Virus record (IMG/VR): IMGVR_UViG_3300031998_000023
DNA from: an uncultured virus (IMG/VR IMGVR_UViG_3300031998_000023)
Lineage: Duplodnaviria > Heunggongvirae > Uroviricota > Caudoviricetes
Length of the DNA stretch: 63,167 nucleotides
Strand: one strand, 5' to 3'
Shown here: positions 40,949-61,192 of the stretch, piece after piece
Layout: each line of letters opens with the position of its first letter
Position numbering within the stretch: the stretch's first letter is position 1
Made by a program: the position numbers and the translations under genes
The notes under the pieces: generated by a model
Seen by the model: the letters and a program-made list of their open reading frames with translations, nothing else
The model's database searches: none
What the model was told of the DNA's origin: nothing

Positions 40949-40953
40949 CTTAC

Positions 40954-41361: not shown

Positions 41362-41526
41362 TATGAGTAAAACCACAATTTTAACCATCATTGGATGGAT
41401 TCTTTTGATTGTTGGATGGTGCGTAATAAAAGCAGCCCCATTGGTCGCTGCTATTATTTTTTTTGTGGCATTTTTTATCTTTGCAACTAATATTGTTAGA
41501 CTACACAAAGAAAACCATTAGAATCC

Positions 41527-41778
41527 ATGAGTAAACTGACTAAATCAGAAAAACTACGCTTGAAACTCAATATTGAATCACATGAAGATGCGGTTCAGTA
41601 TATTGGAAAGAAGTGTAAGAAACTTTCTGGAAAACCATTCAAAAGCCAACTATGGGAAAATACCATTAAAGACGTTGGTGTTATTACAGGAAATGACGGA
41701 AAAGAAAAACTTGCATTCTCATTTATTGAGGATGATTCGTTGGTTTCCTGTAAAATGTTATATATAGCGGAGGAATAA
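41527..41778 (+). CDS. hypothetical protein
   Basis: ORF in gene run. Confidence 0.65.
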   Translation: MSKLTKSEKLRLKLNIESHEDAVQYIGKKCKKLSGKPFKSQLWENTIKDVGVITGNDGKEKLAFSFIEDDSLVSCKMLYIAEE

Positions 41779-41780
41779 AT

Positions 41781-42593: not shown

Positions 42594-42597
42594 TGAC

Positions 42598-42870
42598 ATG
42601 ACAAATATGGAAAAGTATTATATGTTACCTAAACACTTGATTAACAAGGATAATATTGATGTGTATTGTGATTGTAATTATACAGTACACGTAACATTTT
42701 CTCAAGAAATCAAGGATGAACTTGCTAAATGGCCCGAAGAAAAAATGAAAGACATTTTGGATGATGTAAAAACATCAGCAGAAAATGTTGGATTGCACAC
42801 TCCATATTCACTTGAAACAATGGAAATAATTTATGAGTCTATTGTATGCACATTGAATCAAATGTATTAA
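42598..42870 (+). CDS. hypothetical protein
   Basis: ORF in gene run. Confidence 0.65.
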   Translation: MTNMEKYYMLPKHLINKDNIDVYCDCNYTVHVTFSQEIKDELAKWPEEKMKDILDDVKTSAENVGLHTPYSLETMEIIYESIVCTLNQMY

Positions 42871-42887
42871 TTTAAATTTTAAACACA

Positions 42888-43739
42888 ATGGATAAAAAAG
42901 AATTAATCAAAGAAGTTATTGAAGATTTTACAGAAGAATTTCATAACAAACTCGAAGAAGAAAAACTAGAAGTGCCTGAAATCACAGATGATGATATTGA
43001 AAAGGTTATCAATGAATTTTTCAAAAAAGAAAACCTTACAGCAGCCGAAAGATATTTGTCTGATGTTCTTGATGAGTATGTAGAAGATACATACGAAAAG
43101 ATTAATTGGAGCCTTGATAGGGATGCTATTAAAGAAACAGATGAATATAAGGCATGGAGAAGGCACAGCGATGTTTCAGGAGTTTGGTATAAATGCCGTT
43201 ACGACTGCAATTTATCCAAAAATTGGGTAGAAGTAAATGGTAGGGCGCATACTGCTGAAGAGGCTGCTAAAATTGCAGCTGACAAATGGTGTGAACTTAT
43301 ATTTGGTTGGCATTTACAAGACAATGGCGCACTGAATGAAAGCCATGGTTGTGGATTTCCTGCTTGTGCCCTAGCTACAATCCTTGCTAATGATGCAAAA
43401 GCCGACATTACTGATGAAATGAAACAAAAAGCCCATGAATTATTCCAAGAATACTACAAGAGGCTTATCCATTTTGGAGAAACATATGACATGGATGACA
43501 TTGAATGGCTCAAAACAACATTGAAGAGCAAAAACAATGAATACGATTGGAAATACGGATTCAATATTGACATGTATTGTGATTATGACCCAAGTTGGGC
43601 CATTTACCTAATCCTCGAAAATGCAGGAATCCCTGAAAGAAAAATCCATAGTATTTGCCCATGGAAAACAGGTATCTCAATAAGACCTGAAGACTATGCC
43701 GTAATGTATAGAACTTATCAACATACAGATGAACTATGA
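42888..43739 (+). CDS. hypothetical protein
   Basis: QDNG, CDYDP, PWKT motifs. Confidence 0.75.
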   Translation: MDKKELIKEVIEDFTEEFHNKLEEEKLEVPEITDDDIEKVINEFFKKENLTAAERYLSDVLDEYVEDTYEKINWSLDRDAIKETDEYKAWRRHSDVSGVWYKCRYDCNLSKNWVEVNGRAHTAEEAAKIAADKWCELIFGWHLQDNGALNESHGCGFPACALATILANDAKADITDEMKQKAHELFQEYYKRLIHFGETYDMDDIEWLKTTLKSKNNEYDWKYGFNIDMYCDYDPSWAIYLILENAGIPERKIHSICPWKTGISIRPEDYAVMYRTYQHTDEL

Positions 43740-43887
43740 CCAATGAAGAAAAAAAAGGTATAGCAAACTGGTTCATACTTTATTGTAAAAGAAACAAAAT
43801 TAATAAGCCCACAAAAGATATTGTTGAAGACTTCATATCCACTTATTCAATTGATATTGACTGTGAGTATTTAATGAATGTCAAAAT

Positions 43888-44253
43888 ATGACGAAAGAAG
43901 AAGAAGATTTATTATCCAAAGACCTTTGTGCAAGATTAAAATACCATCCATTTATTAAGGGTAAAGAAGGCTATGCAATTAATGAAGGAAGACTTACAGG
44001 TGTTTTTACATCAGGAATTGTAATTATGACTGGTGGCGGCAGTCGGCATCATTATTTTTGGAAGGAAGCAAAACCGTATCTTCGTTCATTGTCAAAAATG
44101 ACTAAAGCAGAAAAAGAAGAACTATTCCAATTGATGGGTAATGGAACCGATGTGGAAAGAATTGATTTCTACAATGAACATCATCTTGATTACCGTGGAC
44201 TTATTAGAAAAAGAATTGCCCTTGAAGCACCAAAAGATATGTATAAATTATAA
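43888..44253 (+). CDS. hypothetical phage protein
   Basis: DLCARL..KPYLRSLSKMT..HHLDYRGLI...ALEAP. Confidence 0.75.
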   Translation: MTKEEEDLLSKDLCARLKYHPFIKGKEGYAINEGRLTGVFTSGIVIMTGGGSRHHYFWKEAKPYLRSLSKMTKAEKEELFQLMGNGTDVERIDFYNEHHLDYRGLIRKRIALEAPKDMYKL

Positions 44254-44256
44254 TAT

Positions 44257-44754
44257 ATGGATATTTTAAGCGTTATAGAAGAGTACGAAACTCTATTGAA
44301 AACAAAAGAGGATGTTGAAACTTATTTTGAAGAGCATCCTGAAGACTTAAAGGTATTGTTTATTGACAAATGCTTTATCATTAAAGGCTTTGATTATAGA
44401 ATATTCATGTACAAGGTAAAGCACGTTCTTACTGATTGTGGCCGACCTAAATATATCCAAGACTTTGAATTTGAACATGGATATAAACTCTACGATGTTG
44501 AGCATGAATTAACCGAACATTGCTCATACTGGGAAAAAATAATATATTCCATAAATAACTATAGATTCATGAAGACATCAAACCTTTATGACATATATAA
44601 ATCCATGGAAGAAGTAAGCGAAGAAAAATTCTTTGAGGAACTTGAAAAAGAAACCCATATTAAGAACATTAGAGAACTACCACATTTTAATAATCTAACA
44701 ACTGTTTTTGACGGAAACAAAGAAAATGACAATGAAAGATGGCCACTTAGTTAG
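44257..44754 (+). CDS. hypothetical protein
   Basis: ORF in gene run. Confidence 0.7.
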   Translation: MDILSVIEEYETLLKTKEDVETYFEEHPEDLKVLFIDKCFIIKGFDYRIFMYKVKHVLTDCGRPKYIQDFEFEHGYKLYDVEHELTEHCSYWEKIIYSINNYRFMKTSNLYDIYKSMEEVSEEKFFEELEKETHIKNIRELPHFNNLTTVFDGNKENDNERWPLS

Positions 44755-44756
44755 TT

Positions 44757-44771
44757 TGGCATGATTTTTGT
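44757..44771 (+). promoter_or_regulatory. class I sigma54-type promoter
   Basis: TGGCATGATTTTTGT. Confidence 0.7.
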
Positions 44772-44804
44772 ATATAATCAGTAAACAACATTAAAATCAT
44801 AATT

Positions 44805-45236
44805 ATGGATAAAAACACATACTATCTCGCACATCCAGAAAAATTGTTTGAAAACGAAGAAGACGAAACTTACTTCACACAAGCAGAAGTTTTACTTGGA
44901 ATGCTTCCAACGTTTTATAACCATAGGCTTGATAGAAATATGCTTATTGAAAACATTTGTGCAAAAACAAACAATTATTTGGATTTCACAAATGAAATTA
45001 TGAAAAGAATGCTTGTATATAACAAATACAATGAAATTCTTATTGAAGCAAAGTGCGAAAAAGATACCGAATTGTTGCGAGAAGAAATCAGATGTGAAGA
45101 ACAAGAGAAAGCAAATGAACGAGTACAAAATTATTGTGACCATCATTGGGGCTATAAAGAATGGGTTGACTCTTGTTACTATAAATGCACTTGTACAAAA
45201 TGTGGAAAGACTGAATATTTTTATGAAAGGGATTAA
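44805..45236 (+). CDS. hypothetical protein with C-terminal Zn ribbon
   Basis: CDHHW...CTKCGK. Confidence 0.7.
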   Translation: MDKNTYYLAHPEKLFENEEDETYFTQAEVLLGMLPTFYNHRLDRNMLIENICAKTNNYLDFTNEIMKRMLVYNKYNEILIEAKCEKDTELLREEIRCEEQEKANERVQNYCDHHWGYKEWVDSCYYKCTCTKCGKTEYFYERD

Positions 45237-45241
45237 AAGTC

Positions 45242-45256
45242 TGGCATGATTTTTGT
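45242..45256 (+). promoter_or_regulatory. class I sigma54-type promoter
   Basis: TGGCATGATTTTTGT. Confidence 0.7.
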
Positions 45257-49151: not shown

Positions 49152-49166
49152 TCAAAAACCGTGCCA
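49152..49166 (-). promoter_or_regulatory. class I sigma54-type promoter
   Basis: TGGCACGGTTTTTGA on - strand. Confidence 0.75.
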
Positions 49167-49182
49167 AACTATGCAGGACCAG

Positions 49183-49196
49183 TACGCAATTGCGTA
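49183..49196. repeat. palindrome TACGCAATTGCGTA (copy 1 of 5)
   Basis: Also 52946, 53679, 54918, 60270. Confidence 0.8.
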
Positions 49197-49202
49197 TATT
49201 AT

Positions 49203-49237
49203 AAAAAAAAATTGGGCCCTTCTTGCGAAAGGCCCAC
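49203..49237 (-). terminator. intrinsic terminator
   Basis: TGGGCC hairpin followed by T run on - strand. Confidence 0.7.
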
Positions 49238-49274
49238 AAAAATAATAAAAAAAACTCATTACGTATGCTATGCG

Positions 49275-49505
49275 TTACATACCATGGTTTTCCATATACA
49301 CAAGGGAATCATAAATCTCATCTACGGGATTTGGCCCATTAGGTAAATTACAATCATGGATAATTGCATTTTTAATTTCAATATTTGTCCATGAATTTTT
49401 TCCTTTTTGTTTTTTAGTGAGCCCGATGGATTGTCCACCTTCAGTACGAATGATTTGGTTAATCATTTCGAGGGCTCTTTCTTTGGCTTGTTCTCTTGTG
49501 ACCAT
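49275..49505 (-). CDS. hypothetical protein
   Basis: ORF in - arm. Confidence 0.7.
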   Translation of the reverse strand: MVTREQAKERALEMINQIIRTEGGQSIGLTKKQKGKNSWTNIEIKNAIIHDCNLPNGPNPVDEIYDSLVYMENHGM

Positions 49506-49523
49506 TTTAATTTTAATTATTCT

Positions 49524-49964
49524 TTAGTGCGACAATTTTGATGAAAGTTCTTTGGCTTTTGCAAGATACCATTGCTCTTTGTTGAAGTCTTCCATGAGTT
49601 TCTTTTGCATGGCTTCCTTAGTATCATCTTCGGCAGGTTTTGTGCCCATGCGCATGCGATACTTATAGGCGGTCATTTTGCACCACTCCATGGTTGCTTT
49701 CGTACCCCAAATCTTTTCCATCATATCAACAACTTCTACATCGTAGTTGTTGTAATGCTTAGGATGGTTGACCATTTCATATTCGCCATTGTCATCTTTC
49801 TTAGTCATGTCCTTTGCTCTTCTTACTGACTGAACGAGTTGTTCAACTCTGTCAACCTTTTCAGATGGTTTTGATTCTGGTCTTGGACGGTGGATACATG
49901 AATTAGGACCATACTTGATACTTGTTTGTAATCTTCCGATTAATTCTGCTTCTTTATCATTCAT
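49524..49964 (-). CDS. DUF3310 (SaV-like) protein
   Basis: MVNHPKHY..EVVD..AYKYRMRMG.K..EDFNKEQWY. Confidence 0.85.
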   Translation of the reverse strand: MNDKEAELIGRLQTSIKYGPNSCIHRPRPESKPSEKVDRVEQLVQSVRRAKDMTKKDDNGEYEMVNHPKHYNNYDVEVVDMMEKIWGTKATMEWCKMTAYKYRMRMGTKPAEDDTKEAMQKKLMEDFNKEQWYLAKAKELSSKLSH

Positions 49965-49989
49965 AGCTATGTATAATTTTAATTGTTAT

Positions 49990-50301
49990 TTAAAAATCGA
50001 AATAATGTTCTTCCTGTAGGATAGCGCTGTCATCAGGCTTATCCTGATTACCGGGAACACTGTTAACTCTTTCGAGTTGGGTAATGCCATGGTCCTGTAC
50101 ATAATATACGTACCACAGTTCTCCATTGATGTCACAGGTATATCTGTGAATCTTACGCCAACCGAATTCAGTGTTAACTTTGATGGTCATCACATCGCTT
50201 GGTTCGACTTCGACTACAGAACCTTCGACCCCGCATCCACATTCACATCCTGTAAGGACCATGGTGAATGCTAATATTAATACAAATACAAGTTTTTTCA
50301 T
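49990..50301 (-). CDS. putative lipoprotein
   Basis: VLTGC lipobox. Confidence 0.75.
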   Translation of the reverse strand: MKKLVFVLILAFTMVLTGCECGCGVEGSVVEVEPSDVMTIKVNTEFGWRKIHRYTCDINGELWYVYYVQDHGITQLERVNSVPGNQDKPDDSAILQEEHYFDF

Positions 50302-50308
50302 AGTTTAT

Positions 50309-50337
50309 AATATACAAAAATTTTAATTAAACTTCAA
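50309..50337 (-). promoter_or_regulatory. class II (sigma70-like) promoter
   Basis: TTGAAG-N17-TATATT. Confidence 0.55.
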
Positions 50338-51223
50338 TTTTTTCAAGTAAAGATTTCAACCTGGCTTCAGCACCTTTCCTGAGTTGTCTGACTCTCTCAG
50401 ATGTTAAGTTAAGCGCCTCACCGATTTCGATGTTATTGCAAGGCTTATTGTAGTCGCCCATGCCATAAGCCATCTTAATGATTTGTGCCTCACGCTCAGG
50501 GAGCCTTGAAATTGCCTTGGCTACTTCGTAAGCGGTGTCACTCTTCCTGGTTTCGACTTCGTAGTCATTCTCAGTAGACGCATAGTCTGTGAAATCCTTG
50601 GACATCTCGAATGTGTAGTTATCGTCTTCAGAACCATCAGTGGTGTCTTCAATTCTTTCAATTGTGGCTCCATAAATGTCATTTCTGTCAGCGAGTTCGA
50701 TGCCATATTTCTCGAACAGGATGTCTTCCACTTCGAAGATAGTAGGCTTACGGCCCTGAGTTCTGTAGAATTCCTCTTCAATCTTCTTTACCTTAGGAGT
50801 AATCTTTGCATTGTTTGCAGGACGCACCACAAGGTTCTCATCATCCAGGAAGTGCTTGATTGCTCTACGGACGTAGTACTGTGCATACGTCATGAACTTA
50901 TTATCCTTGGTGATGTCGAAGTTGTCAAACGTCTCGTACATACCGATGGTTCCGACATTGATGAGTTCAAGCAGCATTCCATTGTCGCCATTGGAATAAC
51001 AGTTGGCTATGTCATAGAGGAATCTTTGATGTGACATCACAATCTTCTTCTTGATTTCAGTCTTCTCTGCTTCAGACGTACCATCGGCGTAGTACTTCAC
51101 AAGCAGGTCTCTCTCTTCCTCAGGAGAGATAGGTTTGCTCTTGGAGCCCTTGATGTCAGTCAAGTAGGCAACAACGAGGTCATCCTTTTTTCTGATTTTA
51201 TTGTAACTCTTCACATTAATCAT
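50327..51223 (-). CDS. phage-encoded sigma70-family RNA polymerase sigma factor (RpoD/RpoS-like, no region 1.1)
   Basis: YLTDI..PISPEEE (1.2), ELINVGTIG..FD..KFMTYAQYYVRRAI (2), LPEREAQII..EIGEALNLTSERVRQL (4.2). Confidence 0.92.
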   Translation of the reverse strand: MINVKSYNKIRKKDDLVVAYLTDIKGSKSKPISPEEERDLLVKYYADGTSEAEKTEIKKKIVMSHQRFLYDIANCYSNGDNGMLLELINVGTIGMYETFDNFDITKDNKFMTYAQYYVRRAIKHFLDDENLVVRPANNAKITPKVKKIEEEFYRTQGRKPTIFEVEDILFEKYGIELADRNDIYGATIERIEDTTDGSEDDNYTFEMSKDFTDYASTENDYEVETRKSDTAYEVAKAISRLPEREAQIIKMAYGMGDYNKPCNNIEIGEALNLTSERVRQLRKGAEARLKSLLEKIEV

Positions 51224-51241
51224 ATTATTAAAATTTTATTT

Positions 51242-51415
51242 TTAAGCTTCAGGAATGGTTTCTTCTTCGTAATTCTTAATTAACTTATCCAATTGTAAGT
51301 ACGTAAGATGGAAGCCTAATTCATAGACATTCTTCTTCAGACCTTCTTCATGTGCTTCCTTACAAGCATCTCTCCATTCCTTGAGTTCTTTAACTAAATT
51401 TTCTTCAGGTGTCAT
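51242..51415 (-). CDS. hypothetical protein (57 aa) upstream of sigma gene
   Basis: Read manually: MTPEENLVKELKEW... Confidence 0.65.
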   Translation of the reverse strand: MTPEENLVKELKEWRDACKEAHEEGLKKNVYELGFHLTYLQLDKLIKNYEEETIPEA

Positions 51416-51438
51416 AATTTTACTTTTTTCTTACCCTA

Positions 51439-51453
51439 TCAAATATCGTGCCA
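51439..51453 (-). promoter_or_regulatory. class I sigma54-type promoter heading the sigma70 operon
   Basis: TGGCACGATATTTGA. Confidence 0.75.
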
Positions 51454-51523
51454 GACTATTCGATTTGGCATTAAAATTTTAATTTGTTCATAATTTAATA
51501 TAGAATGAACACCACAATATTCA

Positions 51524-51538
51524 ACAAAAACCGTGCCA
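51524..51538 (-). promoter_or_regulatory. class I sigma54-type promoter (tandem)
   Basis: TGGCACGGTTTTTGT. Confidence 0.75.
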
Positions 51539-51555
51539 GAAATTTCAATTAGATA

Positions 51556-51587
51556 AAAAAAAAGCACGAAATTCGAGAATTCCGTGC
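51556..51587 (-). terminator. terminator of tRNA/ncRNA operon
   Basis: GCACGGAATT-CTCG-AATTTCGTGC followed by T run. Confidence 0.8.
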
Positions 51588-51726
51588 AAACAAACACACA
51601 TTGTTCCATGATTTAAAATCGAAACTTGCCAAGCAAGAGGCTCATGGAAGCCTGGGTGTACGGTTGTCCTATACTCCACCAATTAGTTTTTCAAACAGAA
51701 GCGAAACTAATAAAACTCCATAAGTT

Positions 51727-51916
51727 TCAGAAAGCGAGAAAAACCGATGTATCATTTAGCGCTGTGTACTTTCCAAGGTTTTCACGCCCAAGTCTCTGGT
51801 CTTAGCAGCCGTATCTAAGGGCTGTGCGCCTAGACTTGGAGAGAGTGCGCATCTCATCATCTTTGAATTAACTAATTACATTAATTTGATTTTGAGCTTT
51901 GCTGTACGCTTTCTTC
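51727..51916 (-). ncRNA. candidate structured RNA closed by TACAGCAA helix
   Basis: AGAAAGCG/CGCTTTCT closing stem; internal CCAAGTCT/AGACTTGG stem and pseudoknot. Confidence 0.5.
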
Positions 51917-51919
51917 AAG

Positions 51920-51991
51920 TAGCGGGAGAAGGATTCGAACCTCCGACCTCAAGGTTATGAGCCTTGCGAGCTGCCTCTGCTCCACCCCGCA
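51920..51991 (-). tRNA. tRNA-Met(CAT), initiator-like
   Basis: Cloverleaf, CTCATAA loop, 1:72 mismatch, GGTTCGAATCC; no CCA. Confidence 0.9.
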
Positions 51992-52013
51992 TCAATATCA
52001 AAGAACTAATCTT

Positions 52014-52096
52014 GTCTCAATTGTGGACTCGGACCACTGTGTTCCGTACTTACGCTATCCAAGGCACGGGCGTTACACTCTAACCTGAATTGAGCC
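52014..52096 (-). ncRNA. tRNA-like RNA without canonical anticodon loop
   Basis: CTCAATT/AATTGAG acceptor stem, GTGG-TCCGAGT-CCAC T-arm. Confidence 0.55.
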
Positions 52097-52208
52097 GGAG
52101 GTTTTGTTTTACTTCAAACAGACCTACCTAACTGTTTTGAACTTAACTTTAAATTAAATTGGCTTGCTTCTCAGCAGTCTATGTATAAATTTGATTATTT
52201 TCATGTTA

Positions 52209-52275
52209 TCAGAAAACAGTATGACAAACAAAAACCCTCTCTTTGTGTATTGAATAGTTGCTGTATGTTTTCTTC
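52209..52275 (-). ncRNA. TACAGCAA helix motif element
   Basis: AGAAAACA-TACAGCAA...TGTTTTCTGA. Confidence 0.45.
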
Positions 52276-52285
52276 TAACGTTATA

Positions 52286-52314
52286 AATATACAATTAAAT
52301 TTGAAAAAAAACAA
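52286..52314 (-). promoter_or_regulatory. class II (sigma70-like) promoter
   Basis: TTGTTT-N17-TATATT. Confidence 0.6.
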
Positions 52315-52345
52315 ATTTTTTCGTATTTTTTTTATTTTTTTCTTG

Positions 52346-52422
52346 TCGGGACGGTAGGAATCGAACCTACATGTAACCAATTACCGTTTCAACAAGGTAT
52401 AAGCTTGAGCGGATACGCCCCG
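52346..52422 (-). tRNA. atypical tRNA-like RNA, anticodon TAT (Ile?), D-loop displaced 3' of anticodon arm
   Basis: CGGGGCG/CGTCCCG acceptor, GTAGG-TTCGATT-CCTAC T-arm, CAAG-CTTATAC-CTTG arm. Confidence 0.7.
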
Positions 52423-52821
52423 TCAGTTATGGATAAACTTAACCTTGGACTTCTCCGGTACGCTTCCCTTGAAATAATGAGAATAGTTGAATTGATACCC
52501 ATGCTTGGCCTTATTTCTCATTGTAATTACTGTGATGGTATCGTTATCAATGTGGCAGAGCATTACGTTGACCATATCTACCGTCAGGGTATCGTTAGCA
52601 AGTCCAAGTGTAAAACAGGAACCGCCATCCCCCAGGTTGAAATGATAAGTTGAATCATCAATTCTATTGACATCAACCTGAGCATCAATCTTTGCTTGCT
52701 CAGCAAGTTCCTGTCGTTCTCTTGAATCCTGAATTGCAAAATACAATACAGCACCAAGAGCAGCGATTCCAAGAATCATAATAATCACTAAAATTTTTGA
52801 GAGTTTACTTTCGTTTTCCAT
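52423..52821 (-). CDS. membrane-anchored hypothetical protein
   Basis: N-terminal TM; stop codon abuts the atypical tRNA. Confidence 0.7.
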   Translation of the reverse strand: MENESKLSKILVIIMILGIAALGAVLYFAIQDSRERQELAEQAKIDAQVDVNRIDDSTYHFNLGDGGSCFTLGLANDTLTVDMVNVMLCHIDNDTITVITMRNKAKHGYQFNYSHYFKGSVPEKSKVKFIHN

Positions 52822-52851
52822 GGTTAAAGTTTTAGATTAAAGTTTTAATTG

Positions 52852-52936
52852 TAGCGGGAGCGGGACTCGAACCCGCACGGACGGTTAGTCCAGAAGATTT
52901 TAAGTCTGCCGTGTCTACCAATTCCACCACCCCGCC
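52852..52936 (-). tRNA. tRNA-Leu(TAA)
   Basis: Class II cloverleaf with long variable arm, CTTAAAA loop. Confidence 0.92.
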
Positions 52937-52970
52937 ATAAATGCATACGCAATTGCGTATATTATTACTG

Positions 52971-53045
52971 TGGGAGATGAGGGATTCGAACCCCCGACCT
53001 GCTGGATGTAAGCCAGTTGCGCTGTACCGACTGCGCCAATCTCCC
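52971..53045 (-). tRNA. tRNA-Val(TAC)
   Basis: Cloverleaf, CTTACAT loop. Confidence 0.92.
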
Positions 53046-53048
53046 AAG

Positions 53049-53238
53049 TTTGTTACGTTGATGTACGGTCCATCTCTTTTATAACACCATAGGCGCAAAT
53101 GGAAAGCCGGCCTCCATTCACTCGGTGTCACCCTCGTTGACTACCCATTGGCTTGAGTAGCCCCGGTACGTAACATAACAGAAGAGGATGCCTTGCCAAG
53201 TCGGGGTCTCTAATTTTAATTAGAAACATCCTCTCTGT
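53049..53238 (-). ncRNA. candidate structured spacer RNA(s)
   Basis: GAGGATG/CATCCTC hairpin; GTTACGT/ACGTAAC-closed multi-stem domain. Confidence 0.45.
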
Positions 53239-53241
53239 TTG

Positions 53242-53315
53242 TGGTCCCTCCAGGGTTTGAACCTGGGACCTACTGATTATGAGTCAGTTGCTCTAACCAA
53301 CTGCGCTAAGGGACC
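53242..53315 (-). tRNA. tRNA-CAT, probably Ile2
   Basis: Cloverleaf GGTCCCTTAGCGCAG.., CTCATAA loop, paired 1:72. Confidence 0.88.
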
Positions 53316-53324
53316 AAATGCATG

Positions 53325-53455
53325 GATTTGTTGTTGATAGTAGTAAACCCAAGAACACTACTTCGTGGTATCACCCACTAACGTATTCAGGCTACGCTGA
53401 GCCCCCCACATCTCCTTGCATTGTGGGCAGCAATGCGGTTAGTAACAAACATAGC
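53325..53455 (-). ncRNA. candidate pseudoknotted spacer RNA
   Basis: TTTGTT/AACAAA and ACTAAC/GTTAGT closing stems; two H-type pseudoknots. Confidence 0.45.
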
Positions 53456-53510
53456 CGCCAAGCGAGTACTGTTTAACGCCAAAGTACTTGAAACGAGCCA
53501 ACGTTGCTTG

Positions 53511-53583
53511 AGCGGCATAAGGGAATCGAACCCTCACCCCCAGCTTGGAAGGCTGGTATACTAAACCGTTATACGAATGCCGC
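53511..53583 (-). tRNA. tRNA-Gly(TCC)
   Basis: Cloverleaf, CTTCCAA loop, U73. Confidence 0.92.
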
Positions 53584-53629
53584 ATTCGATAGAAAAGTGC
53601 TTACTACTATGCTTCATAAGCACTTATTA

Positions 53630-53658
53630 AATATACAATTTTAATTTCTTAATATCAA
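53630..53658 (-). promoter_or_regulatory. class II (sigma70-like) promoter for tRNA operon
   Basis: TTGATA-N17-TATATT. Confidence 0.6.
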
Positions 53659-53696
53659 ATATTTTTTTAGTTAAACGATACGCAATTGCGTATATT

Positions 53697-54059
53697 TTAC
53701 TTTTTCACTGCACGTTTGGCCTTTATTGTTTCTCCGTGACCGAACAAGTCATAGAATTTGTCAATGATATTTGATATTGCTGGCCAATCGTACAATCCAT
53801 TTGCTGCGCCTCCTGCTACGAGACCGAAACCTGCACCAATTAAGTAATCAACCCAGCCTAATCCGAATGTCAACCCGCCTGTTAAGACTGTCAATACTCC
53901 GCATAATATTGCTACGACCCATGATATGATATGCTTTGCATTTGCATTTTCAATATCGAAAGCACCGTTAATAGCACCAGTGATAACTGTTGTACTTGCA
54001 ATAATGGTAGGGATAAAGATTAAAAGTTGTTGCAGTAAAGCTGCTATTGTAATCGCCAT
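53697..54059 (-). CDS. holin-like 3-TM membrane protein
   Basis: Three hydrophobic helices, G..AGGAANGLYD motif, basic tail. Confidence 0.55.
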   Translation of the reverse strand: MAITIAALLQQLLIFIPTIIASTTVITGAINGAFDIENANAKHIISWVVAILCGVLTVLTGGLTFGLGWVDYLIGAGFGLVAGGAANGLYDWPAISNIIDKFYDLFGHGETIKAKRAVKK

Positions 54060-54124
54060 ACTAATTTATTTATTAAAAGTTATTATTAAACTCCTAAAAA
54101 ATAAATAGTATGACAATTATAATT

Positions 54125-54856
54125 TTACGGAATAATCTTTGAAATTTGCATGAACGTATCAGGATATTCGTCTTCGCAAGATGAGAATGTTGCCTTCAAC
54201 GTGTGTTTTCCGTCACAAGACTTCATTTCAAGGTATCTTGATTCCGACCTCATAAGGAAGTATCCAATCTTCAAATAATCGGGCAACTTGGTAATGATGT
54301 TCATGATTCGTGCGCCAAGCGTGGACATTCCATAGTTTCTTGACGAAAGATAGAGAGCAATCAAGTCGCCACTATTGTTGAACGCATAGATGTTGTTTCT
54401 TGCCATCCAAAACATTTTGAGGACGTTATTCAAGCCCAAATCTTTCTCCCAAAAGTCACTTGTGGGCATACAGAAATGGTCTTGGGTCACCGGCAGGTAA
54501 ATGTCTGTTCCAATGACAATGAAATACAGAACGCCACCGCATCTAACTTCTGCCTTATAGACATCAACGTTATTGAAACACTTGGGAGTGGTAGGTGCGC
54601 CACTGCAAACAAGTTTTGGTGTTTTATCAACCATGTATGATGAGCCGTAGCCACAATCAGCGAGAACCTTGTTGATTTTGGTAGTGTAGTCTTTGACTTC
54701 CTCAGCCTCAACTTCACGCCATTCAAGCCAATCAACGCCACTGATGCTTTTTTGAACAATCTTTTTAAATTTTTCGACAGCCTCTTCTTTTGAAGATGCT
54801 TCAATGCCATCTCTAAAAATGCAGGACAGCATAGTTCCGCCAACGTTATACTTCAT
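54125..54856 (-). CDS. hypothetical protein
   Basis: Cassette gene. Confidence 0.75.
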   Translation of the reverse strand: MKYNVGGTMLSCIFRDGIEASSKEEAVEKFKKIVQKSISGVDWLEWREVEAEEVKDYTTKINKVLADCGYGSSYMVDKTPKLVCSGAPTTPKCFNNVDVYKAEVRCGGVLYFIVIGTDIYLPVTQDHFCMPTSDFWEKDLGLNNVLKMFWMARNNIYAFNNSGDLIALYLSSRNYGMSTLGARIMNIITKLPDYLKIGYFLMRSESRYLEMKSCDGKHTLKATFSSCEDEYPDTFMQISKIIP

Positions 54857-54899
54857 AATTTTAATTTGTGTGTTTGTTAATGTTCAATTTAATTAGTAA

Positions 54900-54914
54900 T
54901 CAAAAACCGTACCA
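54900..54914 (-). promoter_or_regulatory. class I sigma54-type promoter (variant)
   Basis: TGGTACGGTTTTTGA. Confidence 0.6.
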
Positions 54915-54933
54915 AAGTACGCATTTGCGTATA

Positions 54934-55152
54934 TTAATCGGTAAAATATTCTTCATGGCCATCCTCGAAGCGCAAAGCGCAAGCCGCTGACTTCCATTTG
55001 TAACGTAGGCCACAAACAACGCCTCTACCAAAGGCCATTGCTTCTGCCATGTTATTGACTTCGATGGTGTCCCATTGGCTGTATCTTGTTTCCAAGATTT
55101 TCCCGCCTTTGTCGTTTGTCTTATAGGTGCAAAGAGTTACTTGTACTTTCAT
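54934..55152 (-). CDS. hypothetical protein
   Basis: Start moved to MKVQV. Confidence 0.7.
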   Translation of the reverse strand: MKVQVTLCTYKTNDKGGKILETRYSQWDTIEVNNMAEAMAFGRGVVCGLRYKWKSAACALRFEDGHEEYFTD

Positions 55153-55165
55153 TGTAATTTTAATT

Positions 55166-55714
55166 TTAAGTCCATGCAAATTGCCAATCTAACTTTTTGA
55201 AGGTATCCTTCATTTGAACGTACTTTTCATAGTTAGGCTCATCCTTGTCCAAAAGGTTTCGCTGTCCATGTTTGGAGAGTTGGCTAATGGTCATAATGTT
55301 AGTTCCGTCATGGTGATAGCCATAGACAATGACTTCGCCATCCTTAAACTGAATCTTATAATCCAAATAGTCATTGGAAGACCGCAAGGCAAATTTGATA
55401 GCCTCGGTCAATGAGGTGAAAACTTGCTCAATGTAGCCTTTTCTATGGCCATTCCAAAGGCCAAGGTCAAAGGTAATCATGTAAAATCCATGCTCAGCCT
55501 TTGAATAGTGGAGATTATCAAAGAAGTTATCGTAATCAAGTTCAGCCTCTTCGTAAACCCAACTCCAATAATCTTCTGAATCCTCTTCTGAAGGCTCCAT
55601 TTCGTTTTCCTTGCACCATTCAAGGTAGTTTTCATAGGAATAATCTTCATCATATCCTCTTCCACCACTTTGAATTAAAGTGAAGTCCTTTTTATTAAAT
55701 TCTTGTTTTGCCAT
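55166..55714 (-). CDS. hypothetical phage protein
   Basis: DLGLWNG...HHDGTN motif. Confidence 0.75.
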   Translation of the reverse strand: MAKQEFNKKDFTLIQSGGRGYDEDYSYENYLEWCKENEMEPSEEDSEDYWSWVYEEAELDYDNFFDNLHYSKAEHGFYMITFDLGLWNGHRKGYIEQVFTSLTEAIKFALRSSNDYLDYKIQFKDGEVIVYGYHHDGTNIMTISQLSKHGQRNLLDKDEPNYEKYVQMKDTFKKLDWQFAWT

Positions 55715-55725
55715 GATTTTAATTT

Positions 55726-55905
55726 TTAGTCAAGTTCTCCGATTTCGTCAACTTCCATTTCATCACCATCAATGACTTCATTGTGGGTTCCTTCCCAACC
55801 ACATTCGGGGCAAACATAGTCCGTATTTGCGGTTTCATAATTGTAATTGGATTCGCCTTGAACAAACTCATGGCCACATTCGGGACAATACATTTTCTCT
55901 TCCAT
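55726..55905 (-). CDS. Zn-ribbon protein (59 aa)
   Basis: Read manually; two CPECG motifs. Confidence 0.7.
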   Translation of the reverse strand: MEEKMYCPECGHEFVQGESNYNYETANTDYVCPECGWEGTHNEVIDGDEMEVDEIGELD

Positions 55906-55943
55906 AGTGTTATGTTTTTATTGGTTAGACTTACTTTATTATA

Positions 55944-55958
55944 TCAAAAACCATGCCA
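55944..55958 (-). promoter_or_regulatory. class I sigma54-type promoter
   Basis: TGGCATGGTTTTTGA. Confidence 0.7.
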
Positions 55959-56022
55959 TTTTTCAACTTCATGGATTAAAATTTTTATTTTTTTTCGGGC
56001 ATAATGTTCACTACAATATAGC

Positions 56023-56037
56023 ACAAAAATCATGCCA
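56023..56037 (-). promoter_or_regulatory. class I sigma54-type promoter (empty cassette)
   Basis: TGGCATGATTTTTGT. Confidence 0.7.
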
Positions 56038-56104
56038 AACTATAAAAAAAAAGCGGCACTTTTTCAAGCACCGCTTCCAAAATATTTAGTGAACGCTTTC
56101 AGCC

Positions 56105-56626
56105 TTATTCTGCTTCGTCTTTGAAAAGTGAATTTACTTCCTCAACGAGTTTGTCCATGTCTTGGAGGTCAGCATCATCCAAAATCAGTGTGCCAACATA
56201 ATCATCAAAATCATCGCCAATGAATACATCGTAATAGCCATCGCCATCGCTTGAAGGCTCAATGCAAGCCTCGCCATAGTCGGATTCGACAACAATATGG
56301 ATTCTCGGCAGTCCCCAATCTTCGGCAGTGTCGCAGATGGTGTCCCAATAGTTGCCGTATTCCACCAAATCGGATTCAATTTGTTCGGCAAGTTCTCTCA
56401 TTTGCTCATCGGTTACTTTGGCAGTATCAAAGCCCTTTGAACGTACATCGGTCTTTGAAACACAGGTAACAACGTAGTCGCCTAACATTTCAGTAGGCAC
56501 AAGAAGAAATTCGCCTTCTTCATCATTGCTGACGATAACGCCAACTCTCGTTTTCAATCCCTCATAGGATTTTTCAAGTTGAGCAATACCTTCGTTTTCG
56601 GACTTGTTAATTCTCTTGTAATACAT
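56105..56626 (-). CDS. acidic hypothetical protein
   Basis: Start moved to MYYKR, downstream of promoter. Confidence 0.75.
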   Translation of the reverse strand: MYYKRINKSENEGIAQLEKSYEGLKTRVGVIVSNDEEGEFLLVPTEMLGDYVVTCVSKTDVRSKGFDTAKVTDEQMRELAEQIESDLVEYGNYWDTICDTAEDWGLPRIHIVVESDYGEACIEPSSDGDGYYDVFIGDDFDDYVGTLILDDADLQDMDKLVEEVNSLFKDEAE

Positions 56627-56664
56627 ATTATTTAATTTTAATTGGTTAGACACTTTAATTATAA

Positions 56665-56679
56665 TCAAAAACTATGCCA
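56665..56679 (-). promoter_or_regulatory. class I sigma54-type promoter
   Basis: TGGCATAGTTTTTGA. Confidence 0.7.
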
Positions 56680-56681
56680 AA

Positions 56682-57011
56682 TTACCACGGAATAGGAAAT
56701 TCCATGAAAAATAATTTTGCTGCATATTCATATTGGAAATTTTGTTCTTCCAATACATTGCAATACTCTTTGAAATAAAATTCCTCATCTTCGGACAAAA
56801 GATTCATGGGAAGGGTATCATCCCTATCTTGGCAAGAAATATCTCGGTCAAGAAGGCTATTGACTGCAACCTTTTCTTTTGATTCGTCAAAGATATTGAT
56901 ATAGCCCCAATCATTGAATTGGACTACATAAAAGGACTTGCCTAATTTGTCACTCCAAAACTTGAAGAGAAATCCGTTTTCAAGTTCGATGTTTCCAACT
57001 TCTTTAATCAT
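56682..57011 (-). CDS. hypothetical protein
   Basis: Cassette gene. Confidence 0.75.
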   Translation of the reverse strand: MIKEVGNIELENGFLFKFWSDKLGKSFYVVQFNDWGYINIFDESKEKVAVNSLLDRDISCQDRDDTLPMNLLSEDEEFYFKEYCNVLEEQNFQYEYAAKLFFMEFPIPW

Positions 57012-57048
57012 AGTTCTTATAATTTTAATTGGTTATACTTATTTCCTT

Positions 57049-57063
57049 ACAAATATCATGCCA
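57049..57063 (-). promoter_or_regulatory. class I sigma54-type promoter
   Basis: TGGCATGATATTTGT. Confidence 0.7.
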
Positions 57064-57066
57064 AAA

Positions 57067-57516
57067 TTAGCACTCTACATACCAATATCCGTTAAATTGT
57101 TCTTTGTACCAATCGTAAGATTCATCGTAAGGGATTCTATCTTCATGGGAAATTTCGTGCTTTCTTATTTCTACTATATCACAACCTACCATTTTTTCAA
57201 TCCTTTCCTCAACAATTCTATCCATTACGCTGAAATGGCATTGTTTAATCTCGTTAAGGAAATGTTCAAGTTCTTCAATATTGTGTGCCACAAATCCACG
57301 AACACCCATTTTGAAAACAATAGGAAAATAGTATTTGCCACTTCTAACATCGTACTTATAATATACTGAATAGTGATTGTCGAAAATCTTTGCTCCACTT
57401 AACCTTGCGCCATTCAAACCATTTGCAAGTTTAAGGGCTTGCCAACCATAAGGCTCATTGGCACAATTCCAACCAATCAATTCTTTGAATTTGTCTCTTG
57501 AAATGTAATTTTCCAT
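57067..57516 (-). CDS. hypothetical protein
   Basis: Start moved to MENYISR. Confidence 0.75.
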   Translation of the reverse strand: MENYISRDKFKELIGWNCANEPYGWQALKLANGLNGARLSGAKIFDNHYSVYYKYDVRSGKYYFPIVFKMGVRGFVAHNIEELEHFLNEIKQCHFSVMDRIVEERIEKMVGCDIVEIRKHEISHEDRIPYDESYDWYKEQFNGYWYVEC

Positions 57517-57551
57517 AGTGTGTGTTTGTTTAATGTTCACTGCAATATACC

Positions 57552-57566
57552 ACAAAAACCGTGCCA
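57552..57566 (-). promoter_or_regulatory. class I sigma54-type promoter
   Basis: TGGCACGGTTTTTGT. Confidence 0.75.
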
Positions 57567-57630
57567 AAAAGAGAAAAGCAGTACAAAAAAATGCACTGCT
57601 TTTCAAAAAAATGTGTATTAAGAAAGGAGG

Positions 57631-58500
57631 TTATTTCAGTTCCGTTTCGTAGAGTTTACCCCACCACCAATCCATGTGGTCAATATCATGGATTTCAACG
57701 TAATTGTCTTTTTCGACAATGACAAGTTCTTTCTCTTCGTAGTATTGCAAAAACTCTTCTTTGACATATTCAAGTGTGTCTTTGAGGTCTTGCTTTGCTT
57801 TTTCCTTGCTGTCGAAGGCTGCAATGGCAGGAGCGGAATCATGGTCAACGTACTTGCAGTTCACATACTGACAATTTGTCACATAGACAACTTGGTCATA
57901 GCCGCTTTTTTCAGCCTCTGCAAAGAATTGTGAAAGGTCATTGAAAGAGACACTAAACCAATCCTTGTCAATTTTTGGGGCTTTGTAATCGTGGACTTCT
58001 ACAATGCTGTTGTCGAAAGAAAGAACATGAACATCGTATAATTCTTTGTTGTCGGGGTCTTCAATGCTCAGCAAGCAATAGATACTTCCGCCATGTTTTT
58101 CTGCATAGGCGCACTCAATATCGCCATAGACAACAATCTCTTTGTCATCGAAGCAAATAGGCTTACCATCTTCAACAATGATAAAGTCTCGCTTGTACTT
58201 GTTCATCATGGCACGAGTTTCATCTTCTTCAAGGTTGAGCAAAACGCACCATGAGTTTTCAAACGAAACATCTTCGTTGTTGATATAGTCAAAGAGATTT
58301 CCAACGTTTTCAAAGAACGTTGATTGTGAACGGCTTGACATATTGTAGATGCTTAAATCGTTGCCGAATTGAGCAAGAAGCATCATAAATACTTTCTTTG
58401 AATCTTCTTTTTCGGTAGTGTCGAACATTCTAAACGACTTGTCGGGGTGTTCGATAATTTGATTTTCTTGTGTGCTGATAGGATAAGTAACTAAAATCAT
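57631..58500 (-). CDS. hypothetical protein
   Basis: Cassette gene. Confidence 0.8.
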   Translation of the reverse strand: MILVTYPISTQENQIIEHPDKSFRMFDTTEKEDSKKVFMMLLAQFGNDLSIYNMSSRSQSTFFENVGNLFDYINNEDVSFENSWCVLLNLEEDETRAMMNKYKRDFIIVEDGKPICFDDKEIVVYGDIECAYAEKHGGSIYCLLSIEDPDNKELYDVHVLSFDNSIVEVHDYKAPKIDKDWFSVSFNDLSQFFAEAEKSGYDQVVYVTNCQYVNCKYVDHDSAPAIAAFDSKEKAKQDLKDTLEYVKEEFLQYYEEKELVIVEKDNYVEIHDIDHMDWWWGKLYETELK

Positions 58501-58538
58501 AATGTGTGTTTTTTATTGGTTATACGTTATTATTACTT

Positions 58539-58553
58539 ACAAATATCATGCCA
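58539..58553 (-). promoter_or_regulatory. class I sigma54-type promoter
   Basis: TGGCATGATATTTGT. Confidence 0.7.
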
Positions 58554-59040
58554 AACTATCATCGGCAAAAGTTCCAAATGGACATTCTTTGTCATTGACT
58601 ACTTCGGTGCAATTATCGAAGCACAGCCACATATCCACGTTGTTGTTAGCCCTAAATTTGTTGAGGGCTGCATTAATGGCATCCTCTTCTTCACATTCGG
58701 GCATGGCGTTTTTGTTGATTACGACCCTTGTAGTCAGTTCAAAGGTGACAAGTTTGGCAACCTTTTCGGTTTGCTTTGTCTCTTCTTTGATAACCTCTTT
58801 AACCCTTGCTTCTACAAAGGTTTTAAGATGTTCATGGTAACGAGCCGAAAACTGCACGGCTGTCTCATGTTCAAACTTCTCTTTGAAGATTTTAGCCCAT
58901 TCAAAGGCATACTTTTCAGTGACTTCATTCTTGGTGATGATTTTGTCTTGCAAATCATTGAAAATGGGCGTTGCATAGTTGGCAACATCAATAATGAGAG
59001 AGAGAAAATCAATTTCTTTTTCGCTTGAAAACTTACTCAT
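58546..59040 (-). CDS. hypothetical protein
   Basis: Cassette gene; stop lies inside next promoter. Confidence 0.75.
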   Translation of the reverse strand: MSKFSSEKEIDFLSLIIDVANYATPIFNDLQDKIITKNEVTEKYAFEWAKIFKEKFEHETAVQFSARYHEHLKTFVEARVKEVIKEETKQTEKVAKLVTFELTTRVVINKNAMPECEEEDAINAALNKFRANNNVDMWLCFDNCTEVVNDKECPFGTFADDSLA

Positions 59041-59078
59041 GGTTTATAATTTTAATTGGTTATTTGCTTAATAATAGT

Positions 59079-59093
59079 ACAAAATCCGTGCCA
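59079..59093 (-). promoter_or_regulatory. class I sigma54-type promoter inside a stem-loop
   Basis: TGGCACGGATTTTGT; AAAATCCGTGCC/GGCACGGATTTT inverted repeat. Confidence 0.75.
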
Positions 59094-59136
59094 AAGTTGC
59101 CAAAGGCACGGATTTTTTTACACACAATATGAAAGA

Positions 59137-60210: not shown

Positions 60211-60250
60211 AATGTGTGTTTTTTTAATTGGTTAGACGTTTCTATTTACA

Positions 60251-60265
60251 GCAATAATCGTGCCA
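60251..60265 (-). promoter_or_regulatory. class I sigma54-type promoter (canonical -12)
   Basis: TGGCACGATTATTGC. Confidence 0.8.
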
Positions 60266-60285
60266 AAGGTACGCATTTGCGTATA

Positions 60286-60799: not shown

Positions 60800-60807
60800 A
60801 ATTTTAA

Positions 60808-61190: not shown

Positions 61191-61192
61191 AA

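What the first reader, a model, noticed from the sequence alone, without database searches (positions are those of the whole stretch)
50309..51538. Possible sigma cascade: sigma54-type promoters drive a phage sigma70 that may read a second promoter class
Seen: two tandem class I promoters (51439, 51524) precede the 57-aa ORF and the sigma70-family gene. A second intergenic motif, TTGnnn-N17-TATAWT always preceded by TTG, occurs at 4372, 6525, 17307 and 26802 (N16) on +, and at 50309, 52286 and 53630 on -. These head lipoprotein genes and the tRNA/ncRNA operon. Established: the Bacteroidetes housekeeping sigma reads TTTG(-33)/TAnnTTTG(-7), not this E. coli-like form. Inference: class II is the cognate promoter of the phage sigma, giving a host sigma54 -> phage sigma70 temporal cascade.
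Basis: partly seen in the sequence, partly recalled or inferred. Interest (0 to 1): 0.7.

Follow-up and report, generated by a model that had tools for sequence, protein, structure and literature searches.

The report
Jumbo phage cascade starts on sigma54
A giant gut virus of Bacteroidetes bacteria appears to switch on its first genes with the host's stress-response sigma factor (sigma54) instead of the usual housekeeping one, and then to hand over to its own sigma factors, which is an unusual way for a phage to start an infection.

Summary
The window belongs to a T4-like jumbo myophage with Bacteroidota-type translation signals. Class I sites (TGGCAYR-N4-TTG) are real: 31 in the window against 2 by chance, all co-oriented with genes. 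They match the Bacteroidota sigma54 motif. No phage sigma54 or enhancer-binding protein was found. Class II (TTG-N17-TTGTATAWT) is real, recurs in held-out DNA and relatives, and is at background level in 201 Bacteroidales genomes. It heads replication, nucleotide, chaperone and tRNA genes, not mainly lipoproteins (2 of 7). The window's sigma (sigma-1) is the only one behind class I, a link conserved in 11 of 13 clade loci. A sister clade uses host sigmaA promoters instead. Best model: host sigma54 → sigma-1 (class II) → gp55-like sigma (class III), an SPO1/T4-type cascade primed by sigma54. The assignment of sigma-1 to class II and the timing are inferred, not shown. How sigma54 is activated is unknown.

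The parts
51525..51538 (-). Class I (sigma54-type -24/-12) promoter P1 upstream of sigma-1
   Evidence: tandem class I pair also before sigma-1 in L001, L067-L072, L074, L075
51440..51453 (-). Class I promoter P2, 24 nt from its G(-13) to the ATG of the 57-aa ORF
51497..51524 (-). Possible weak class II-like site (TTGAAT-N16-TATATT) right behind P1; candidate autoregulatory promoter
   Evidence: similar sequence at the same place in L001, L067, L070; function inferred only
51242..51415 (-). 57-aa ORF, no Pfam or PHROG family; not present between promoter and sigma in L001, L067-L070, so a lineage-specific insertion
50327..51223 (-). Phage sigma-1 (P0001), 298 aa, sigma70 family with regions 2, 3 and 4, no region 1.1
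50309..50337 (-). Class II promoter overlapping the last codons of sigma-1; heads a 103-aa lipoprotein-signal ORF and a DUF3310 ORF
   Evidence: conserved just after sigma-1 in 9 of 13 clade loci
52286..52314 (-). Class II promoter heading a non-coding stretch and tRNA-Met (51919-51991)
53630..53658 (-). Class II promoter heading the tRNA cluster (Gly, Met, Val, Leu; 52851-53583)
4372..4400 (+). Class II promoter before a 135-aa lipoprotein-signal ORF
6525..6553 (+). Class II promoter before a small ORF
17307..17335 (+). Class II promoter before a 236-aa ORF
26802..26829 (+). Class II promoter (16-nt spacer) before a 90-aa ORF
9441..45255 (+). Block with 14 class I sites on + (9441, 15099, 18525, 20840, 23301, 25246, 28955, 31765, 34091, 38791, 39606, 40008, 44757, 45242), each before a run of small ORFs
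49153..62922 (-). Block with 17 class I matches on - (two of them, 56182 and 60809, lie in or at the edge of ORFs and may be chance), plus a TGGTAC variant at 54901
49183..60283 (.). Five copies of the palindrome TACGCAAWTGCGTA (49183, 52946, 53679, 54918, 60270); three abut class I sites and one lies just upstream of class II 53630; operator-like
   Evidence: 3 more in G001, 6 in G002, 7 in G003, 0 in the 340 kb of G005 scanned

Best explanation
This is a three-tier sigma cascade in a T4-like Bacteroidota jumbo phage. (1) Host RNA polymerase carrying host sigma54 reads about 60 or more class I promoters in a clustered region of small early-type genes, which includes the sigma-1 gene. (2) Sigma-1, a phage sigma70 with regions 2, 3 and 4, binds host core polymerase and reads class II (TTG-N17-TTGTATAWT) in front of replication, nucleotide, chaperone, anti-defence and tRNA genes and in front of the sigma-2 and sigma-3 operons. 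The sites and genes are shown; the assignment to sigma-1 is inferred. (3) The gp55-like sigma-3 reads the -35-less class III motif CTATTTAT before virion and lysis genes (motif shown; reader inferred by analogy to T4). Class II probably arose from dual host-sigmaA/sigma-1 promoters, as in the sister clade, by losing the -7 TTTGC tail once early transcription moved to sigma54. With no phage activator found, opening of class I promoters most likely relies on a host enhancer-binding protein (for example the one serving the chaperone regulon) acting without a fixed enhancer, possibly helped by A/T at -12 (inferred).
For: Class I: 31 against 2; 64 in the 148-kb record G001. G(-13) lies a median 36 nt before the ATG (IQR 34-39, n=102 sites in four phage sets). 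In a genome scan 27 of 80 shown loci were Bacteroidota by title, and 21 of 27 lay intergenic before an ORF against 13 of 54 in other taxa. PMC9723704 (passages read) maps such -24/-12 TSSs before groES, lon and dnaK in Flavobacterium. No sigma54 gene: Pfam search of G002-G006 and a host-sigma54 profile on the window, G001-G003 and G218 1-120 kb. Class II in intergenic DNA against shuffles: 10 vs 0.05 (held-out G001), 19 vs 0.30 (G002), 10 vs 0.38 (G003), 1 vs 0.25 (sister G005). TTG at the -35 position in 16 of 38 intergenic against 8 of 102 coding -10 cores in held-out G001. Background level in 201 Bacteroidales genomes, while the sigmaA pattern gives 100-358 per genome in 5. Class II heads gp32-TK-RecA, 5'-3' exonuclease, primase, ClpB, MTase-UvrD, a Tad2 operon, dUTPase and helicase. 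Class I lies before sigma-1 in 11 of 13 clade loci and 0 of 7 sister loci. The sigma-1 tree splits into two supported clades (99/95 and 98/87) that differ in promoter use: class I 10-68 and sigmaA 0-14 in 9 records, against class I 1-11 and sigmaA 33-116 in 9 records. Orthologs carry class II in this clade and sigmaA promoters in G005 (2 and 4 pairs); class III pairs with class III (9, 11, 6 pairs). In G005, 65 of 68 sigmaA-type sites start TAT against 11-31% in four hosts. The sigma-2 alignment has a gap over region 3. 20 of 59 sigma-3 family members hit PHROG 'late sigma transcription factor'.
Against: No TSS, time-course or in vitro data. Sigma-2 keeps the WW-x-R-Q region 2 residues of host sigmaA while sigma-1 has YY-x-R-R, so by residue identity sigma-2 fits a TAnnnT -10 at least as well. 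The sister clade has a sigma-1 ortholog but only 1 strict class II site in 340 kb; a relaxed class II pattern does hit 22 of its 231 upstream regions against 6 for the reversed control. The sites heading the sigma-2 operon end TATATA, and the site heading the sigma-3 operon is clear only in G003 and weak in G002 and G218. The DNA polymerase and PhoH genes have class III motifs directly upstream. Host sigma54 keeps a Q/L-rich region I, so it should need an activator, and none was found in the phage. Intermediate records exist (G213: 17 class I, 18 sigmaA; G214: 32 and 14), and five records were picked because they held a class I hit. About a quarter of this phage's genome was not seen. The gp55 match is weak (E=0.12; Foldseek gave no hit at E<=0.001).
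Confidence: 0.55

Rival explanations
1. Class II is read by sigma-2 (the 238-aa sigma70 next to the SbcC/gp46-like gene), alone or after priming by sigma-1, and sigma-1 has another or an overlapping promoter set.
For: Sigma-2 keeps host-like region 2.3/2.4 residues and an intact region 4. It is present in this phage (G218) and in G002 and G003.
Against: Its alignment has a gap over region 3 although class II has a conserved TTG just upstream of the -10. No fourth promoter class was seen for sigma-1.
Confidence: 0.2
2. Class II is read by host sigmaA holoenzyme, either unaided in an unsampled host lineage with a relaxed -7 element, or redirected by a phage co-activator in the manner of T4 MotA/AsiA.
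For: Same TTG-N20-TA spacing as host sigmaA promoters. A few hybrid sites ending TATATTTGC exist (G001 L131:18909; G212). Orthologous genes use sigmaA promoters in G005.
Against: The bases after TATAWT are unconstrained, whereas the sigmaA consensus needs TAnnTTTG (PMC7366714, PMC9723704, passages read). No genome among 201 sampled Bacteroidales is enriched for class II. No MotA-box-like conserved element lies between -35 and -10.
Confidence: 0.13
3. Class I sites are mainly decoys that trap host sigma54 holoenzyme in closed complexes (damping the host stress response or storing polymerase), and are only weakly or conditionally productive.
For: 45 sites of the strict pattern in 157 kb against 5-22 per whole host genome. 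No phage activator. The phage carries its own DnaK, ClpB, ClpP and Hsp20, which are sigma54-regulon functions in the host.
Against: Sites are co-oriented with genes and sit at a tight distance from start codons. 44 of 48 class I upstream regions have no other promoter motif. The sigma-1 gene has no other strong promoter.
Confidence: 0.07
4. Class I is read by a phage-encoded, unrecognised sigma54-like or virion-delivered factor, not by host sigma54.
For: About 25% of this phage's genome was not seen. -12 is A/T in 89% of 63 sites against C in 14 of 27 host sites.
Against: The complete relative G003 has class I sites and no sigma54 hit by Pfam or by a host-derived profile. The motif equals the host's. 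-12 C is 38% in G002+G003.
Confidence: 0.05

Closest known systems
Bacillus phage SPO1 sigma cascade
   Same: A host holoenzyme transcribes early genes, including a phage sigma; phage sigmas then drive middle and late genes on host core (PMC13401047, start of abstract only; gene names gp28 and gp33/34 recalled).
   Different: The first tier here is sigma54-type, not housekeeping sigmaA; there are three sigma-like genes; the virion genes are T4-like.
T4 and 'group 2' jumbo phages (gp23 capsid, no own RNA polymerase, full-length plus minimal sigma factors, gp33; PMC7824862 passages)
   Same: Gp23 capsid, T4 portal, sheath, gp32, polB; RpoD-like plus gp55-like sigmas; a -35-less late motif.
   Different: T4 early promoters are sigma70-type and middle transcription uses MotA/AsiA (recalled). 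The late motif here is CTATTTAT on the sense strand, not T4's TATAAATA (recalled).
Bacteroidota sigma54 regulon (Flavobacterium SM4 promoters, PMC9723704; PMC12316311)
   Same: The same -24/-12 motif, TTGGCAYR-N3-TTTG with a relaxed -12 base.
   Different: Here it is on a phage, at 45 strict sites in 157 kb against 5-22 per host genome, heading most early-type genes, with no phage enhancer-binding protein found.
Pseudomonas phage YuA sigma54-like promoter P015 (PMC10914365 passage)
   Same: A phage promoter of sigma54 type.
   Different: One promoter in YuA against a whole regulatory tier of dozens, including the next sigma gene.
Sister clade of about 400-kb phages (G005, G227-G234)
   Same: Orthologs of all three sigmas (G005) and the class III motif.
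   Different: Uses host sigmaA promoters (33-116 per record) in place of class I and class II.

Membership tests
sigma54-dependent promoter | -24 GG and -12 element at fixed spacing (TGGCAYR-N4-TTG) | tested here: met
sigma54-dependent promoter | Canonical C at -12 (TTGC; recalled consensus) | tested here: not met
   C in 11% of 63 sites here and 38% of 65 in G002+G003; also relaxed in Bacteroidota hosts, 14 of 27
sigma54-dependent promoter | Oriented with the gene, at a distance that leaves a normal 5' leader | tested here: met
   median 36 nt from G(-13) to ATG, IQR 34-39, n=102
sigma54-dependent promoter | Upstream enhancer and cognate AAA+ activator | tested here: inconclusive
   no GAFTGA-type protein in the phage DNA seen; no enhancer common to most sites, only a palindrome at a minority; host activators not examined
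sigma54-dependent promoter | Transcription depends on rpoN | not testable with these tools
   needs a cultured phage-host pair
sigma70-family sigma factor (sigma-1) | Regions 2 and 4 present | tested here: met
   Pfam PF04542 and PF04545 over cut-off; profile hits SigA/RpoD at E about 1e-36
sigma70-family sigma factor (sigma-1) | Tryptophan dyad and region 2.4 Gln of primary sigmas | tested here: not met
   YY-x-R-R in P0001 against WW-x-R-Q in host sigmaA and sigma-2
Bacteroidota sigmaA promoter (for class II) | TTTG about 20 nt before TA | tested here: met
Bacteroidota sigmaA promoter (for class II) | -7 element TAnnTTTG | tested here: not met
   positions after TATAWT unconstrained; none of the 7 window sites has it
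SPO1-type sigma cascade | Phage sigma gene under a host-read promoter | tested here: met
   class I before sigma-1 in the window and in 11 of 13 clade loci; 'host-read' is inferred
SPO1-type sigma cascade | Later sigma genes under the middle promoter class | tested here: inconclusive
   class II-like sites head the sigma-2 and sigma-3 operons; clear in G003, variant or weak in G002 and G218
SPO1-type sigma cascade | Temporal order and dependence of middle genes on phage protein synthesis | not testable with these tools
   only assembled RNA contigs were available
T4 gp55-like late sigma (sigma-3) | Sequence similarity to gp55 and no region 4 | tested here: inconclusive
   20 of 59 family members hit phrog_234 at E<=0.05, best 7.5e-6; profile to T4 gp55 E=0.12; no Pfam region 4 hit; Foldseek only weak sigma hits

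The most novel reading that the evidence does not exclude
A whole clade of Bacteroidota jumbo phages has moved its entire first tier of lytic transcription onto host sigma54, with more sigma54 promoters than the host has, and fires them without any phage enhancer-binding protein. It would do so either by activator-bypass promoters (A/T at -12 and an AT-rich melting region) or by exploiting a host stress activator that infection itself switches on. This would be a lytic programme gated by the host's sigma54 stress circuit.
Probability: 0.4. Interest if true: 0.85.

Novelty: new variant of a known kind. Interest (0 to 1): 0.7.

Why it matters
Phage early transcription on host polymerase is normally assumed to use the housekeeping sigma, because sigma54 holoenzyme is locked until an ATPase activator opens it (PMC7057263). 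A phage clade that starts from dozens of sigma54 promoters, next to a sister clade that does the same job with sigmaA promoters, is a natural experiment in rewiring a regulon. It gives ready substrates for asking how sigma54 is activated in Bacteroidota, where the activators of the chaperone regulon are not assigned in the passages read. It also predicts that rpoN or its activator is a host factor for these phages, and offers a candidate orthogonal sigma-promoter pair (sigma-1 with class II) for Bacteroidota engineering.

Tried and rejected
The single-sequence viral search for sigma-1 found nothing; the alignment search worked. The EM motif finder merged classes II and III in AT-rich DNA and was clean only for G005, so anchored patterns with shuffles were used instead. 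The class II pattern was mis-specified (it left out TATATT), so that search is uninformative and was not used. RNA runs: two ruminant-gut metatranscriptome assemblies share 14-18% of the sampled words; run X1 has eight listed pieces of 209-427 nt without differences, but contigs cannot show starts, strand or levels. The search for an enhancer upstream of 151 class I sites found only the palindrome at a minority of sites, plus coding-type words. A 92-aa clade-specific protein in the class I region (L133:7429-7707; 89% and 71% identical in G002 and G003) had no Pfam hit and only atlas hits below 0.8, so no activator or repressor was identified. The four nearest catalogued phage records by capsid protein (Mel-JY01, LR756508, RM378, immuto 2-6A) have 0-2 class I matches. 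Class I as a sigma70 promoter with -35 TTGGCA was rejected because no -10 is conserved downstream. Rfam found only tRNAs in 47900-63167. No complex prediction was run, since sigma with core is a textbook pair. The host species was not identified and no CRISPR-spacer search was done. Earlier scan notes: three look-ups returned nothing. Literature: ten searches listed no paper on a sigma54-driven phage early programme; only open-access text is covered, and supplements were not read.

Full report
What the window is. It holds about 146 mostly small ORFs in two converging blocks (+ up to about 48 kb, - beyond), six tRNAs and 33-41% GC. Shine-Dalgarno-like words occur before only 14 of 146 starts, and A is enriched at -3 and -12/-13; I recall this pattern as Bacteroidota-type initiation. 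Record G001 (148 kb) contains window 9203-63167 at 100% identity. Record G218 matches G001 at 99.97-100% over the three stretches compared (6.3, 3.7 and 14.2 kb). Together they cover about 271 kb of a genome estimated near 360 kb. They encode a T4-type portal, Gp23 capsid, sheath, gp32, polB, anaerobic RNR, DnaK, ClpB, ClpP and a Tad2-like protein. The best capsid matches among catalogued phages include Flavobacterium phage immuto and Rhodothermus phage RM378. The host species is unknown.

Class I. The two sites before the sigma gene are real and belong to a large set: 16 strict matches against 0.02 expected, 31 relaxed against 2.0, and 64 in G001. They cluster in a region of small genes (median 110 aa) in G001, G002 and G003. 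G(-13) lies a median 36 nt before the ATG (IQR 34-39, n=102). No sigma70-type -10 is conserved behind them. Of the 80 loci shown, 27 were Bacteroidota by record title (my assignment); 21 of 27 lay intergenic before an ORF, against 13 of 54 matches in other taxa. Some downstream ORFs look like HtpG, ClpC, Lon and RpoB (recognised from memory, not searched). PMC9723704 and PMC12316311 (passages read) place chaperone and protease genes in the Bacteroidota sigma54 regulon. Five Bacteroidales genomes carry sigma54 with a Q/L-rich N-terminus and 5-22 strict sites each, against 45 in 157 kb of the phage. No sigma54 gene or GAFTGA-type activator was found in the phage DNA seen or in the complete relative G003; the PF00158 hits lie in the ClpB-type protein and other AAA ORFs.

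Class II. All seven sites are confirmed. The strict motif is enriched in intergenic DNA of held-out G001 (10 vs 0.05), G002 (19 vs 0.30) and G003 (10 vs 0.38), but not of sister phage G005 (1 vs 0.25). The -35 TTG is coupled to the -10 core: 16 of 38 intergenic against 8 of 102 coding cores in held-out G001, 27 of 88 against 37 of 386 in G002, and 3 of 48 against 20 of 299 in G005 (the G003 tally was cut from the output). Bases after TATAWT are free. In 201 Bacteroidales genomes the strict pattern gives at most 15 matches, like its reversed control, whereas the sigmaA pattern gives 100-358 in five genomes. Class II heads SSB-thymidine kinase-RecA, 5'-3' exonuclease, primase, helicases, dUTPase, ClpB, a methylase, a Tad2 operon and tRNA clusters: typical middle functions. 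Many class II first genes have no family. Only 2 of the 7 window sites head lipoprotein-signal ORFs.

A third motif, (C/A)TATTTAT with no -35, precedes virion and lysis genes (25 of 126 upstream regions in window+G001, reversed control 4). The DNA polymerase and PhoH genes also have it. The phage has two more sigma-like genes. Sigma-2 (238 aa; regions 2 and 4; alignment gap over region 3) follows an SbcC-like gene. Sigma-3 (296 aa) belongs to a family that weakly matches T4 gp55. Their operons start at class II-like sites, clear in G003 and variant or weak in G002 and G218. Sigma-1 alone sits behind class I: in 11 of 13 clade loci (two pairs are near-identical) and 0 of 7 sister loci. A class II site follows it in 9 of 13.

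Comparative test. Sigma-1 orthologs form two supported clades (44 rows chosen by me from the fetched loci; midpoint root). Nine records at 35% or more identity to P0001 have 10-68 class I and 0-14 sigmaA sites. Nine records at 29-31% have 1-11 and 33-116. G213 is intermediate (17 and 18) (29 records searched; the other ten lack a close sigma-1 hit or hold more distant sigmas; five of these nineteen records were picked by a class I hit). Related records are not independent, so this is essentially one switch. Orthologous genes pair class II with sister sigmaA promoters (2 and 4 pairs) and class III with class III (9, 11, 6 pairs). In G005, 65 of 68 sigmaA-type sites begin TAT, against 59/190, 101/358, 60/278 and 33/298 in four hosts. 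This would follow if those promoters serve both host sigmaA and sigma-1, although selection for strong sigmaA promoters could also explain it. The sigma-1 operon of G005 starts at a sigmaA-like site.

Mechanism and odds. Shown: three motif classes, their gene sets, three sigmas and the conserved layout. Inferred: class I is read by host sigma54 (about 0.85) and is earliest (about 0.75); sigma-1 reads class II (about 0.6, against sigma-2 0.2 and host sigmaA 0.13); sigma-3 reads class III (about 0.75). Region 4.2 of sigma-1 keeps E-R-x-R-Q but has Ser where host sigmaA has Arg, which fits a short TTG -35 by recalled sigma70 contacts. Its region 2 is too changed to predict the -10. The open problem is activation. 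Sigma54 holoenzyme needs an AAA+ activator, although region I mutants bypass this (PMC7057263, passages). The -12 base is A/T in 89% of 63 sites here but C in 38% of sites in G002+G003, so bypass by sequence is not established, and a host activator is the more cautious guess. An operator-like palindrome abuts or overlaps some class I sites in all three clade genomes examined and may time or shut off early transcription.

Novelty. Sigma cascades (SPO1) and multi-sigma T4-like jumbo phages (PMC7824862, passages) are known. A single sigma54-like phage promoter is reported for YuA (PMC10914365, passage). A 2026 preprint proposes a phage AAA+ protein acting on sigma54 polymerase (10.64898/2026.10.06.757011, passages). 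Ten searches of the open-access library listed no report of a phage whose first tier is sigma54-type. Verdict: a real, clade-wide new variant of a known kind of cascade; interest 0.7.

Noticed in passing
L332-L397 (for example L360 1-420): Many linear viral contigs of about 11 kb carry one to three tandem TTTGGCACGGTTTTTG-type motifs 100-210 nt inside both ends, pointing inward; L360 also has a sigmaA-type site and an ORF that looks like a phi29-type DNA polymerase (by eye). A possible second, unrelated use of sigma54 sites at genome termini.
   Followed up: partly
window 49183, 52946, 53679, 54918, 60270: Palindrome TACGCAAWTGCGTA next to or overlapping class I promoters, conserved in G002 and G003, absent from the 340 kb of G005 scanned; operator-like, binding protein unknown.
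   Followed up: partly
L133:7429-7707 (G001): 92-aa protein in the class I region, 89% and 71% identical in G002 and G003, no hit in the 340 kb of G005 compared, no family; candidate regulator.
   Followed up: partly
window 48480-48620: AT-rich repeats (ATTATAATTTTAATT-like) where the two gene blocks converge and GC skew changes sign; possible origin, terminus or terminator region.
   Followed up: no
window 52327-52404 (-) and 51600-51910 (-): A tRNA-like sequence (T-loop visible by eye) that ARAGORN and Rfam did not call, and a non-coding stretch conserved upstream of sigma-1 in relatives and covered by an identical contig in an RNA library; possible ncRNAs.
   Followed up: no
G218 L477:1282-3171; G001 L130:9259-11841, L131:153-518, L131:10602-11267: The phage encodes DnaK, ClpB, Hsp20 and ClpP, functions that belong to the host sigma54 regulon; this may offset titration of host sigma54.
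   Followed up: no
L129:11499-12215: Tad2-like (anti-Thoeris) gene in an operon headed by a class II site.
   Followed up: no
G223 (L389), G222 (L381), G216 (L356): Viral records with 7-18 class I matches and no sigmaA-type array; G222 and G223 had no sigma-1 hit, so sigma54-type promoters may be used by further phage groups.
   Followed up: no
G005 (L175:7269, L178:12337, L179:6694 and others): A subclass of sister-clade promoters ends TTTAC instead of TTTGC, including the one heading the sigma-1 operon.
   Followed up: no
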